A stretch of 57,377 nucleotides of DNA, counting the filler, from Catajapyx aquilonaris (Eukaryota), in the NCBI GenBank assembly GCA_000934665.2. It is 2 parts of 2 records of this genome, joined end to end, with 100 filler letters (N's around TTAATTAATTAA, not from the genome) between each part and the next. Parts side by side here need not be neighbours in the genome. Positions count along the whole stretch, not along the records: positions 1 to 28,576 come from JYFJ02004897.1; 1 more part is not named here. One strand, written 5' to 3'. Below the pieces are notes generated by a model. The model was not told the DNA's origin. It searched no databases and was given only the letters and a program-made list of their open reading frames with translations. The translations under genes were made by a program, and so were the position numbers. This document shows, piece after piece, positions 21,889 to 24,666 of this stretch. The number at the start of each line of letters is the position of its first letter. The stretch's first letter is position 1.

Positions 21889-24666
21889 GTAAAATGAGGT
21901 TCCATGGGCTCCCTACTGCCTCCAGAAAATGACTCCTCTCCTCGTTTTTCCTCAATTTGTTACATGTCATGAATTCATGTAGTAGTGAAGGTTCCAGCAT
22001 AGCATTTCATATTAATGAGAGGAAAAAAAGGAAGGGACTGCATGTTTCTATATCTCTTTTTTCAAGATGACAGATAAAATCATTTGCTGATGAGTGTGCT
22101 GACAGGATCCAGATTTGGTCATTTCCAGAGGGCAACACTTGATTTTATTTTTGAGGACCCCAGGATTTCACTTGTGTTTATGTCCGTGATCAGAGAATGT
22201 TGAAAAAATGTAGATGAGAATTGATCTACCCTTTTCAAGCCATTGGAAACAGAAGGAGTTCGACTCATGTCAGCTCGATGCCTTCAAGATTTCAAGATTG
22301 GATTCATGAGTCGGGCTTCTTGCCTGGGCCATGCGTTACTTGGCCCTCCCTCCCTAACATCCACCACTATTTTTTAAACGCATTTCTTTCTCAGTTGCTT
22401 CCTCAGAACTAAGAAAAGAAAGAAAAAAAGCATCCTCTTACCATTTTCACTCCTCTCTACCCCCAAACAATAGCAAAAGCGTTATTGCGCGTAGGGCACA
22501 CTCTTGATTTTATAATTGCGCTGCGCATTGGGCTGGGCTGGGTGGGGGTTAGAAGGATTTTGCGCTTTGCGATGTTTCTTATTAATTTTTTTTGTTTATT
22601 GGCAGGGAGCAAAATCAACTATTTCTGAATCCTTGCTCAGAATATAATATCAATGTGGTTTTGCTAAAGGAGCAGGAAGGTTGGATTTGCTCACTGCCAA
22701 TGCGCAACATGGCGAAAAACCAGTTGCTTTCTGTCACCAGGAAGTCGCTGCAAGTACATGGTTAAAGTTGTTAATTAATTTGCAGTGTGACTACAGAGTG
22801 ACAGAAGGTTACTGCTGCGCGCACTGCGGCCATCTTTTTCAGGATTTTTTTTCTCAACCTACACCTACCAGATTGTCCTAAAACCCCTTGTTTCGATTTT
22901 CTCAACCTCCACAATCCCACTAAAATGGCTTGGAAAGGTTTTTTGTTGACCGTCCCCTAGTAGGCAGTTATTTTCCCTATGGATTTTGTTTGGTCTTCCA
23001 ATGTATGCACATGATTGAAAAAATAGATAGGGAAAGGCCATTGCTGAAGTGAAAATGTTAGCCCGCTGAAAATGACCTGTGCCCATTAACAAGATTTTCT
23101 GAGAGAAAGAAGCTTGTTGGTTTTACAAGCATGATAAGCAGGTCGCAAAGCAGCAGAGTCTTGCACCACAAGTGAGAAGCCAGATAATTTGTCAAAATCA
23201 GAGCGGTTTTTCAGATTAGGTCCACTTGTTCTTTGACTCCACCTGCTTTAGTGGCCTGTAAGCTTAACTTTTGTGCTAGTTAGTAAGATCATGAACCAGT
23301 ATTGGACACCAGAACACTAATGGACTATCTTCTTATTCTTTTTTTCTCCCCTGCTCAAAGTATGTAGATGTCAAAATGTTGAGTTCCGCAGCAACCACCC
23401 AGCGGAGGGAGACTTTGCGAAGGCGAGAAGCTGTGTAAGAAGTACGTTTGGAGAGAGAGAGAGAGAGAGGGAAAGGTGCTCCTGGGGTAACTCGAAAAAG
23501 TCGCGTAATACTGAACCAAAATGAGAGAACACCATCCTTTTTTTGGCCTCGTGTTTGGTTTTTTCCTTGGCTGTGGGGTTTACTCTGCCCCCTGATTGCC
23601 AGGAAAGGTAAAGTAACATTACTTACCAAAAAAATTAAAATGGAAGTCAGTGAAAATGAAAGGAGTGGTTGTTGATATCTCCAAATTGACAAGAACGTGG
23701 AAAATCAGGAGGACGTGTCATTGCCCAACAATTTTAAGACACCTATTGGATTGTATTGACCCCTCCTTTCAACAAGGCATTTTTTTGTGCCATGTTTGTT
23801 AACGAGTTATTTCCTTTACCTTCTTTGGTTTCTTTGTTTTCATGCGCAATAGGGCGACTTTTAGACAGGGCTGGCCAATTGCGCGAACATGCTGCGCAGT
23901 GCGATTTTTTTACATAATTTTTTTATTTGTTTTTGAGGTTGGGGCTGGGATTTGGGAACTTGCTCTTGAAACGAAGCTTGGAGGGCCTTGCAGTTCAGTA
24001 GTTTTGGCATTTGAAGTATTTTATACCAGTATAATGGAATTGGAAGGCTGCAAGCTTCGTTGAAGGAGATGCGCATTTGCTACTGGGACAGGCAGGCATG
24101 CATTTTGACATGTGTATCTAAATCCAGTGCTTGGCAGAAAAGCATGAGTTTGCGAGGGATTTACACACACAGTAAAAAAACATGTCTGATTGTCCTCGAC
24201 GCGCTTCGTGCGACTTTTGCCTGTTTACAGTGAGGCGGGAAATCTTAAATGCTGCTCTTGTTTCCGGCAGGTTGCGCAATTTTTAGTGCATAAGAAGTGT
24301 TGGAATGTGGAAGAGGGGAAGGAATAATTCTCGGTTTAGACAGGGTTCAATCCCCTCCTCCTTTTTATGGTGGCAGAGCGATTTGCAAAGAGTTTTTCTA
24401 ACTGAAACTTTTCCTTTGGGCGGAATCCAAGCCTGAGTGGCTTCAGCGAAAGCATAATATTGTTTCTAATTCACGGTTAATTTTTTATTTGTTTTTGTGG
24501 TCCAATTTCCCTCATACAGGCATGAAGGTGGTGTGAACATGAATTTTTCTAATGCTTGTTTTTCTCTTCCTCCTCCTTCACCCCCTTCTCTACTTCCTCA
24601 ACTCCCAACCGTCCTTTTCGACAAACCAATCAAACACTCACATTACACAAAACATAACTCACGCAG
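21889..24666 (+). promoter_or_regulatory. Putative regulated (detained/retained) Ogt intron with an internal decoy/poison exon
   Basis: Same position as vertebrate OGT intron 4; weak donor, internal 3' splice site at 23360/23367, clustered weak donors, atypical terminal acceptor. Confidence 0.6.

What the first reader, a model, noticed from the sequence alone, without database searches (positions are those of the whole stretch)
21889..24666. Arthropod Ogt intron at the position of the vertebrate O-GlcNAc-sensing detained intron 4: candidate conserved splicing rheostat
Seen: a 69-bp exon (DLYC...DEAK), then a 2778-bp phase-0 intron before ACYLKAIET. The other visible Ogt introns are 80-800 bp. 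The donor is weak (AAG|GTAAAA), and retention gives a stop at the third codon (TGA 21895-21897). No TIR element, SINE or TSD was recognised inside it, although the surrounding DNA and another Ogt intron are full of insertions. Established: human OGT exon 4 is this same 23-codon exon, and intron 4 is retained in response to O-GlcNAc levels through an intronic silencer/decoy exon. Inference: this intron is a constrained regulatory device, implying the feedback circuit is shared across bilaterians. I cannot tell whether this has been described for this lineage.
Basis: partly seen in the sequence, partly recalled or inferred. Interest (0 to 1): 0.85.

Follow-up and report, generated by a model that had tools for sequence, protein, structure and literature searches.

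The report
Specially retained intron in arthropod OGT
In this insect-like animal's gene for the sugar-sensing enzyme OGT, an intron sits exactly where vertebrates hold one back to throttle the enzyme; it is partly left in the RNA and shares an unusual splice-site layout with the same intron in many other invertebrates, so this self-limiting switch may be much older than vertebrates.

Summary
A 69-bp exon (21820-21888) equals human OGT exon 4 (aa 155-177). A 2778-bp phase-0 GT..AG intron follows, up to 24667, with TGA at its third codon. The four downstream introns are 80-799 bp. It is therefore the positional counterpart of the vertebrate detained intron 4.

New evidence:
1. Only one public run holds this DNA, and its assembly is RNA-like. 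A 3909-nt contig, spliced at all four downstream introns, runs unspliced from 24178 through the acceptor. Four more contigs lie inside the intron.
2. Of 21 RNA-like OGT contigs from other invertebrates, 14 carry extra sequence exactly at this junction. All 102 crossings of six other intron positions are clean.
3. It is the longest measurable intron in 8 of 8 genomic loci.
4. An AG-free zone of 137 nt precedes its acceptor. The median is 99 nt in 45 lineages, against 32 nt at other acceptors.
5. Two related species keep intron blocks at 75-95% identity where four-fold sites are 53% identical.

No sequence similarity links this window's intron to any of those loci, and O-GlcNAc responsiveness is untested. 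An internal transcript start near 24178 remains a live rival. The scan noted the same idea earlier on another genome.

The parts
21820..21888 (+). OGT exon a, 69 bp. Counterpart of human exon 4 (aa 155-177).
   Evidence: human exon 4 = 69 bp = aa 155-177 in passages of PMC5535036
21889..24666 (+). The intron in question: 2778 bp, GT..AG, phase 0. Positional counterpart of vertebrate OGT intron 4.
   Evidence: no copy elsewhere in the window
21895..21897 (+). In-frame TGA at the third intron codon. It ends the reading frame if the intron stays in.
   Evidence: translation ...DEAKVK*
21911..24170 (+). Intron stretch on which four separate RNA-like contigs lie without a mismatch: 21911-22231, 22669-23019, 23070-23398, 23945-24170.
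   Evidence: table 8, records 1-4
23599..23613 (+). Candidate internal splice-site pair CCAG|GAAAG|GTAAAG: an acceptor-like site, 5 nt, then the only internal donor that scores as high as the real one. Possible decoy or recursive micro-exon. No use of it was seen.
24178..24666 (+). Last 489 nt of the intron. They are part of the 3909-nt contig that is spliced at all four downstream introns. They hold 7 upstream ATGs and stops in the OGT frame.
   Evidence: (record 5)
24528..24664 (+). 137-nt AG-free, C/T-rich then C/A-rich zone before the acceptor. The last 20 nt are only 45% pyrimidine.
   Evidence: controls
24655..24657 (+). TAA in the OGT frame, 9 nt before exon b. It rules out an intron-encoded N-terminal extension.
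24667..24863 (+). OGT exon b (human aa 178-243).
24944..28174 (+). Exons c-f (24944-25033, 25322-25740, 26012-26622, 27422-28174), separated by introns of 288, 271 and 799 bp. All are joined in the RNA-like contig.

Best explanation
Window 21889-24666 is the insect-type counterpart of vertebrate OGT intron 4. It is an intron that is removed inefficiently and selectively, so part of the OGT RNA keeps all or part of it.

Shown:
- Its position is the same as in humans.
- Keeping the intron ends the frame after two codons.
- RNA-like contigs of this species hold intron sequence although the four downstream introns are spliced out.
- The acceptor is unusual: a 137-nt AG-free zone and a poor pyrimidine tract next to the AG. 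This implies a distant branch point.
- The same junction carries intron sequence or small insertions in RNA-like contigs of many invertebrates.

Inferred:
- The rate at which this one intron is removed sets how much productive OGT mRNA is made.
- By analogy with vertebrates only, that rate follows cellular O-GlcNAc.
- An internal pair of splice sites (candidate 23599-23613) may hold spliceosome parts unproductively, as the vertebrate decoy exon does.
For: Position: exon a equals human exon 4.

This species:
- A 3909-nt contig covers 24178-24860 without a break and joins across the 80-, 288-, 271- and 799-bp introns.
- Four further contigs lie in the intron with no mismatch.

Premature stop.

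Acceptor:
- The AG-free zone is 137 nt here, against 18-88 nt at the window's other five acceptors.
- Across 45 dereplicated lineages the same acceptor has a median of 99 nt, and 22 of the 45 reach 100 nt or more.
- At 26 other OGT acceptors in genomic loci the median is 32.5 nt and the maximum 64 nt.
- One-sided Mann-Whitney p = 1e-9 (45 against 31).

Other invertebrates:
- 14 of 21 RNA-like contigs carry extra sequence exactly between K and A, while 102 of 102 crossings of six other intron positions are clean.
- Four lineages show processing that genomic DNA cannot give. In L055 an internal donor is joined to exon b, and L029 of the same species still holds the 1271 nt that L055 lacks. In L027 exon a is joined to an internal site and 756 nt are kept. 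L004 and L035 carry inserts of 145 and 230 nt without GT..AG ends, which shift the frame.

Length: the intron is the longest measurable one in 8 of 8 genomic lineages. The median is 2264 nt over 18 lineages.

Constraint in relatives: L002 and L006 are identical at 105 of 198 four-fold sites (53%), yet three intron blocks are 75-95% identical.

Repeats: none were found in the intron, although a neighbouring OGT intron is mostly repeat.
Against: - No sequence similarity links this window's intron to any of the 80 loci (blastn), or to the conserved blocks of L002/L006 beyond control regions (nhmmer). Constraint on this particular intron is therefore not shown.
- The RNA evidence for this species comes from one run of unrecorded library type, held as contigs. 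It cannot show amounts, strand, RNA ends or nuclear location.
- The main contig begins at 24178, not at the donor. An internal transcript start fits that as well.
- The seven contigs that hold a whole GT..AG intron (including two that begin at its first GT) could in principle be genomic DNA of intron-poor species. No poly(A) tails were seen, although the contigs are transcript-sized.
- Seven of the 21 RNA-like contigs are cleanly spliced.
- One 93-kb contig (L034) holds an OGT with no intron here.
- Park et al. 2017 state that Drosophila OGT has no ISS-like element.
- The donor is not weak relative to the gene's other donors.
- O-GlcNAc dependence is untested.
Confidence: 0.55

Rival explanations
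1. An internal transcript start. A promoter inside the intron near 24178 gives an RNA that begins with 489 nt of intron and runs into exon b. [quoted passage not shown] It would yield either a short OGT starting at the first in-frame Met, or a non-coding RNA. It can coexist with the best explanation.
For: - The 3909-nt contig starts at 24178 with no unaligned letters before it. The neighbouring intron contig stops at 24170.
- The 200-nt bin starting at 24089 has the intron's highest CpG observed/expected ratio: 0.88, against 0.14-0.79 elsewhere.
- The sequence just upstream of the contig start reads CACAGT, a partial match to an arthropod initiator; this consensus is recalled, not tested.
Against: - A contig end is not an RNA end (tool note).
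- The leader holds 7 ATGs with ORFs of 4-46 aa, and a TAA in the OGT frame lies 9 nt before exon b. The first in-frame Met is 205 residues into the downstream exons, so no mOGT-like extension is possible.
- This rival does not explain the four contigs further upstream in the intron. Nor does it explain contigs of other species that hold exon a plus the intron (L002, L006, L016, L033, L050).
Confidence: 0.3
2. An ordinary ancestral intron. Its position is old, like many animal intron positions. The RNA signals are nascent pre-mRNA, or slow removal of the locally longest intron, with no regulatory role.
For: - The intron position is present in all 10 genomic lineages that span it. Shared position alone therefore says little.
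- The window's intron shows no detectable conservation.
- The flanking introns of this gene are far longer.
- The donor strength is ordinary.
Against: - Plain pre-mRNA would not single out one junction in 14 of 21 contigs while 102 of 102 other crossings are clean.
- It does not explain the partial forms that use internal splice sites.
- It does not explain the lineage-wide long AG-free zone.
- It does not explain intron blocks far better kept than four-fold sites in L002/L006.
Confidence: 0.2
3. Stepwise (recursive-type) removal. The intron is taken out in two steps through an internal acceptor-plus-donor site. The half-spliced forms seen are intermediates of constitutive splicing, not a regulated brake.
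For: - L027 has its first half removed and L055 its second half removed. They look like complementary intermediates.
- The motif CCAGGNNNGGTA (AG, 5 nt, GT) occurs once in the whole window, in this intron on the + strand, against 0.29 expected in the window.
- In 47 dereplicated introns it occurs 5 times on the + strand and 0 times on the - strand.
- The donor within that motif is the one used in L055.
Against: - No joint at 23603 or 23608 appears in the one run.
- The motif was defined from the window and group D themselves. Only L053 and the distant L045 are independent hits, and looser versions of the motif lose the strand contrast (6 vs 4).
- Recursive splicing is known mainly from far longer introns (recalled).
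Confidence: 0.15

Closest known systems
Vertebrate OGT intron 4: an O-GlcNAc-responsive detained intron with an intronic silencer / decoy (poison) exon. Sources, as passages: Park 2017 PMC5588854; Tan 2020 PMC7261177; Parra 2020 PMC7373989; Govindan & Conrad 2025 PMC12017769.
   Same: It is the same intron position, after the same 69-nt exon. It is kilobase-sized. Keeping it gives a premature stop. It is kept in RNA whose other introns are removed. In other invertebrates internal splice sites are used, and the intron blocks are conserved.
   Different: No sequence similarity to a silencer could be tested or shown. No 143-153-nt decoy exon was found in the window. Response to O-GlcNAc and nuclear detention are untested. 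The published conservation reaches only to fish and jawless fish, and Drosophila is stated to lack an ISS-like element.
[quoted passage not shown]
   Same: In the one run, an RNA-like contig begins inside the homologous intron and continues into the next exon.
   Different: There is no in-frame intron-encoded start: TAA lies 9 nt before exon b, and there are 7 short upstream ORFs. The intron part is continuous with exon b, not a separate spliced exon. A contig end does not prove a start site.
Recursive splicing through short cryptic exons in Drosophila. Known here only from titles in the reference list of PMC7373989; the details are recalled.
   Same: An acceptor-like site is followed within 5 nt by a donor-like site deep in the intron (23599-23613). 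Half-spliced forms occur in L027 and L055.
   Different: The intron is only 2.8 kb, and no use of the site was seen in this species.
Drosophila sxc/Ogt post-transcriptional control. [quoted passage not shown] An sxc intron-retention event is reported in PMC11765297 (passages; which intron is not stated).
   Same: An arthropod OGT gene whose output appears to depend on how an intron is handled.
   Different: It is not known whether the fly event involves the homologous intron.
   Same: The same idea: an arthropod OGT intron at the vertebrate detained position, left unspliced in RNA-like contigs of other invertebrates.
   Different: That note reports a conserved mini-exon with a stop codon. In this window I found only an unconfirmed candidate site.

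Membership tests
Vertebrate-type OGT intron-4 detention system | The intron directly follows the 69-nt exon that encodes aa 155-177. | tested here: met
Vertebrate-type OGT intron-4 detention system | The intron is kept in RNA whose other introns are removed. | tested here: inconclusive
   In this species the last 489 nt are contiguous with a contig spliced at four introns, and four more contigs lie in the intron. No single contig spans the whole intron. In other invertebrates, 14 of 21 RNA-like contigs carry sequence at this junction.
Vertebrate-type OGT intron-4 detention system | The retained form is unproductive (premature stop). | tested here: met
   TGA at 21895-21897, and further in-frame stops up to TAA at 24655-24657
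Vertebrate-type OGT intron-4 detention system | An internal decoy/poison exon of about 150 nt with weak splice sites, needed for retention. | tested here: inconclusive
   The only finding is a candidate AG-5 nt-GT site at 23599-23613. No junction uses it. Internal sites are used in L055, L027, L004 and L035.
Vertebrate-type OGT intron-4 detention system | The intron is far better conserved than neutral sequence. | not testable with these tools
   No close relative of the window's species was on hand, and no similarity to the 80 loci was found. In L002 vs L006 the feature is met: blocks at 75-95% against 53% at four-fold sites.
Vertebrate-type OGT intron-4 detention system | Sequence similarity to the vertebrate ISS / ultraconserved element. 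| not tested
Park 2017 states that Drosophila has none.
Vertebrate-type OGT intron-4 detention system | Retention rises with high O-GlcNAc and falls with low O-GlcNAc, and the RNA is held in the nucleus. | not testable with these tools
   This needs experiments.
mOGT-type alternative start in intron 4 | The transcript's 5' end lies inside the intron. | tested here: inconclusive
   The contig starts at 24178. Contigs cannot show RNA ends.
mOGT-type alternative start in intron 4 | An intron-encoded start codon in frame with the next exon, giving a new N-terminus. | tested here: not met
   TAA lies in frame 9 nt before exon b, and the 7 upstream ATGs open ORFs of only 4-46 aa.
Recursive splice site / short cryptic exon | An acceptor with a pyrimidine tract followed at once, or within a few nt, by a donor. 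| tested here: met
   23580-23613: 75% pyrimidine, CCAG, 5 nt, GTAAAG
Recursive splice site / short cryptic exon | Junctions or intermediates that show its use. | tested here: not met
   No joint at this site appears in the one run, which is a weak test.

The most novel reading that the evidence does not exclude
Self-limitation of OGT by holding back the intron after the 23-codon exon did not arise in vertebrates. It is ancestral to bilaterians, and possibly older, given the cnidarian-like loci. The sequence has turned over, but the architecture is kept: a kilobase-sized repeat-free intron, a very long AG-free zone before the acceptor, and an internal pair of splice sites that splits the intron into two halves which can be kept separately. 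This window would be the insect-type form of it.
Probability: 0.4. Interest if true: 0.85.

Novelty: new variant of a known kind. Interest (0 to 1): 0.7.

Why it matters
O-GlcNAc homeostasis in mammals rests on one detained intron of OGT. The papers I read place its conservation within vertebrates (fish or jawless fish) and state that Drosophila lacks the silencer.

If the same intron is selectively kept in insects, crustacean-like and spiralian-like animals, three things follow:
- The feedback is an ancient part of the O-GlcNAc system.
- It can be studied in genetically tractable invertebrates.
- The feature shared across phyla is a distant branch point with a long AG-free acceptor zone and internal splice sites, not a shared sequence. 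That points to what the mechanism really needs.

It would also give a deep-time example of a decoy or poison element that keeps its place while its sequence changes.

Tried and rejected
- Whole genome: none is held, so genome-wide repeat content of the intron could not be measured.
- Sequencing runs: no RNA holder is listed. The single run X1 has no recorded library type. I call it RNA-like only because its contigs are spliced.
- Parts without cover in X1: exon a (21820-21888) has no contig on it, and no listed contig joins exon a to exon b or to the intron. This blank is not evidence either way.
- Depths in X1: the four intron contigs carry 2.7-6.5 and the main contig 57.2. Each contig has only one figure, so these cannot rank parts of a gene. 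My arithmetic says the bins over the 288- and 271-bp introns hold no more than the exon share of the main contig. That is a weak hint only.
- Internal duplication of the intron: the best local alignment scores 34, against shuffles of 21.6 +/- 2.5 (maximum 30), and it is a T-rich stretch. Rejected.
- Rfam and tRNA scans of the window: nothing.
- Pfam on 13 intron ORFs: nothing above a cut-off. One match had E = 0.097 and 13 bits against a cut-off of 27.
- blastn of the intron against 80 loci: nothing.
- nhmmer with the three conserved L002/L006 blocks: hits no better than in nine control regions.
- L004's 145-nt insert against 12 introns, the window's included: z between -1.6 and 1.1, so no relative was found.
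- Poly(A) tails on 26 RNA-like contigs: none seen.
- Tree: this is the quick tree only. Its WINDOW row was built from wrong exon ends and must be ignored; the corrected join is.
- TGCGCA is the most enriched 6-mer in the intron (6 seen against 0.64-0.87 expected). It does not survive correction for 4096 words.
- Earlier notes of this scan: 'near' and 'relatives' look-ups gave nothing.
- Literature: searches found no paper that describes retention of this intron in an invertebrate. The supplements of Park 2017 (Figure S3, conservation to jawless fish) were not seen.
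Full report
**What is in the window**

Exon a lies at 21820-21888. It is 69 bp, encodes [23 protein letters not shown], and is preceded by ...tttcag|. The donor AAG|GTAAAA follows. The intron 21889-24666 (2778 bp) ends in ...cacgcag|, and exon b starts at 24667 with ACYLKAIET.

tblastn with two full-length OGTs puts exon a at residues 159-181 of a centipede protein (100% identical) and at 155-177 of a 1045-aa vertebrate protein. 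Exon b follows directly. Exon b aligns to residues 178-243 of human OGT chains.

The downstream exons are 24944-25033, 25322-25740, 26012-26622 and 27422-28174. Their four introns (80, 288, 271 and 799 bp) are each bridged by a GT..AG joint in an RNA-like contig. The six exons join into 713 codons without a stop, about 90% identical to insect OGTs. The gene is therefore an intact, insect-like Ogt.

Retention of the intron reads GTA AAA TGA.

No exon for residues 1-158 lies in the 21.8 kb upstream, and none beyond residue 872 in the 29 kb downstream. The two flanking introns are thus much longer than this one, or the assembly is broken at the N runs at 28577-28676.

**Homology with human intron 4**

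Willems et al. 2017 (PMC5535036, passages) report that skipping of human OGT exon 4 deletes 69 bp, which is residues 155-177. Park et al. 2017 (PMC5588854, passages) define the regulated event as retention of the fourth intron, between exons 4 and 5. Together, this makes exon a the exact counterpart of human exon 4 at both of its borders. The 2778-bp intron is the counterpart of human intron 4.

**Repeats**

The intron has no copy elsewhere in the window apart from a (GA)n run. No real internal duplication exists. There is no tRNA-like or Rfam element, and none of 13 ORFs matches a Pfam family above its cut-off.

By contrast, 630 of the 799 bases of the last visible intron copy a repeat that also lies at 20854-21676, before exon a (85.5% over 560 nt). 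A genome-wide check was not possible.

**Splice sites**

On a simple consensus score the donor (5.0) lies within the range of the gene's other five donors (4.0-5.9).

The acceptor is the unusual end. The 20 nt before it are only 45% pyrimidine, the lowest of the six acceptors. No AG occurs in the 137 nt before it (24528-24664), against 18-88 nt at the window's other five acceptors. A C/T-rich tract lies 40-110 nt upstream. This layout implies a distant branch point.

**RNA of this species**

Only one public run holds the stretch. Its library type is not on record, but its contigs are spliced.

A 3909-nt contig covers 24178-24860 without a break. That is the last 489 nt of the intron plus exon b. 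It then joins across all four downstream introns and continues beyond 28174 into sequence that is not in the window. Four more contigs lie inside the intron with no mismatch: 21911-22231, 22669-23019, 23070-23398 and 23945-24170. Intron sequence is therefore present in RNA-like assemblies in which the other four introns are removed.

What this cannot show: amounts, strand, true RNA ends, or whether one molecule holds the whole intron.

An RNA starting at 24178 would carry a 489-nt leader with 7 ATGs (ORFs of 4-46 aa) and a TAA in the OGT frame 9 nt before exon b. The first in-frame Met lies 205 residues further on. Such an RNA cannot make full-length OGT.

**The same junction in other animals**

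A scan of metagenome contigs with the 65 residues of exon b gave 80 loci. I mapped them with a full-length OGT.

Twenty-one species-level contigs are RNA-like: they cross other intron positions of the window without a break. At the K|A junction:
- 7 are spliced (L010, L013, L014, L025, L037, L038, L039).
- 5 hold a whole GT..AG intron of 1027-2641 nt between exon a and exon b (L002, L006, L016, L033, L050).
- 2 begin at a GT and run 528 and 248 nt into exon b (L005, L022).
- 2 are half-spliced (L027, L055).
- 2 carry inserts of 145 and 230 nt without GT..AG ends that shift the frame (L004, L035).
- 3 begin inside intron-like sequence (L009, L030, L023).

That makes 14 of 21 with extra sequence at this junction. 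All 102 crossings of the window's six other intron positions are clean. Every insert brings an early stop.

L055 and L029 come from one species. L055 joins an internal donor (...CCAGGTTTG|GTAGGT...) to exon b, and L029 still holds the 1271 nt that L055 lacks. This is RNA processing, not genomic DNA.

The contigs with a whole intron could in principle be DNA of intron-poor species, and no poly(A) tails are seen. However, they are transcript-sized, with flanks of at most about 600 nt. Relatives such as L046 also have an intron (after residue 158) that these contigs cross without a break.

On a quick tree, the contigs with extra sequence fall in a pancrustacean clade, a hexapod-like clade and a spiralian-like clade (the WINDOW row of that tree is void).

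**Shared architecture**

In the genomic (intron-bearing) loci this intron measures 510-3557 nt. It is the longest in 8 of 8 lineages where another intron can be measured (24 other introns, 46-962 nt). The median over 18 lineages, the window included, is 2264 nt.

The AG-free zone before exon b has a median of 99 nt in 45 dereplicated lineages, and 22 of them reach 100 nt or more. At 26 other OGT acceptors of the genomic loci the median is 32.5 nt and the maximum 64 nt. Adding the window's five other acceptors to the controls gives a one-sided Mann-Whitney p of 1e-9. This is the one conserved feature that the window itself demonstrably shares.

**Constraint in relatives**

L002 and L006 differ at nearly half of their four-fold sites (105 of 198 identical). 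Even so, three blocks covering more than half of the intron are 75-95% identical. A core of about 100 nt is shared with a third species, L050, and is rich in AG|GT-like sites. Other groups of loci also share intron blocks.

None of this similarity reaches the window's intron. The window's nearest relatives among the loci are only about 84% identical in protein.

**A candidate internal site**

The only internal donor that scores as high as the real one is AAG|GTAAAG at 23608. It lies 5 nt after an acceptor-like ...ctgccccctgattgccag|.

The pattern CCAGGNNNGGTA occurs once in the whole window, here (0.29 expected). It also marks the used internal donor of L029/L055 and its relatives L070/L078, as well as L053 and the distant L045. 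In 47 dereplicated introns it occurs 5 times on the + strand and never on the - strand.

I defined the pattern from the window and that group, so only two hits are independent. Looser forms of the motif lose the strand contrast. No junction at this site is seen. I give it about one chance in four.

**Reading**

The most likely account is that this is the insect-type form of the OGT intron that is selectively held back. The intron stays in part of the RNA, such RNA is unproductive, and the unusual acceptor, perhaps with an internal splice-site pair, makes its removal rate-limiting. That O-GlcNAc sets this rate is inferred from vertebrates only.

Three rivals remain:
- An internal transcript start near 24178. 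[quoted passage not shown]
- An ordinary old intron seen as pre-mRNA.
- Constitutive two-step removal.

**What is known**

The papers read (as passages) place conservation of the silencer or decoy within vertebrates: fish to mammals, vertebrates, and jawless fish with Drosophila lacking it. Four searches found no description of this intron's retention in an invertebrate. A Drosophila study reports an sxc intron-retention event without naming the intron.

I reached the cross-species retention independently with my own calls, but I could not confirm a conserved mini-exon in this window.

Noticed in passing
window 20854-21676 and 26667-27297: Two copies of one repeat of about 640 nt (85.5% identical over 560 nt). 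One lies in the intron before exon a. The other makes up 630 of the 799 bases of a downstream OGT intron. Many 90-95% alike contigs of run X1 pile up on both, so it is a multi-copy, transcribed element.
   Followed up: partly
window 22486-24278 (intron): The palindrome TGCGCA occurs 6 times (TGCGC 11 times) in the 2.8-kb intron. That is a third of all copies in the 57-kb window, against 0.64-0.87 expected. It is often found within GCTGCGC. It is the most enriched 6-mer, but it does not survive correction for all 6-mers.
   Followed up: partly
window 1-21819 and 28175-57377: The exons for OGT residues 1-158 and beyond 872 are absent from the window. The flanking introns therefore exceed 21.8 and 29 kb, or the assembly is broken at the N runs at 28577-28620 and 28633-28676.
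   Followed up: partly
protein P0084: A named 'isoform X2' of 1029 aa (species name cut to 'Dr...') lacks exactly the 23 residues of exon a. It reads ...[12 protein letters not shown]. In-frame skipping of this exon is therefore annotated in another animal.
   Followed up: no
protein P0105: A fish OGT gene model carries an 88-residue insertion exactly between ...EEAK and ACYLKAIE. It was probably read from intron 4.
   Followed up: no
L051, L056, L061, L069, L073, L079 (about 650 nt before exon b): Six loci, which also split exon b after residue 220, share a block of about 100 nt inside the same intron. It begins with a clear acceptor (TTGTTTTA.ATTCTAG|) and is followed by a CG-rich stretch that is nearly invariant. 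A second conserved block of about 200 nt abuts exon b.
   Followed up: partly
L034 (93-kb contig): An OGT gene close to arachnid sequences runs from residue 99 to 1046 without any intron, including at the K|A position. The arrangement is therefore not universal.
   Followed up: no
L002 1525-1825, L006 1640-1940, L050 1060-1260 (alignment A1): The three species share a core in mid-intron that contains GGTAGTTTCAGG and TTGCAG|GTTTCTGAGTT ... AGTGAG. That is several juxtaposed acceptor- and donor-like sites bounding a possible 20-27-nt micro-exon.
   Followed up: partly
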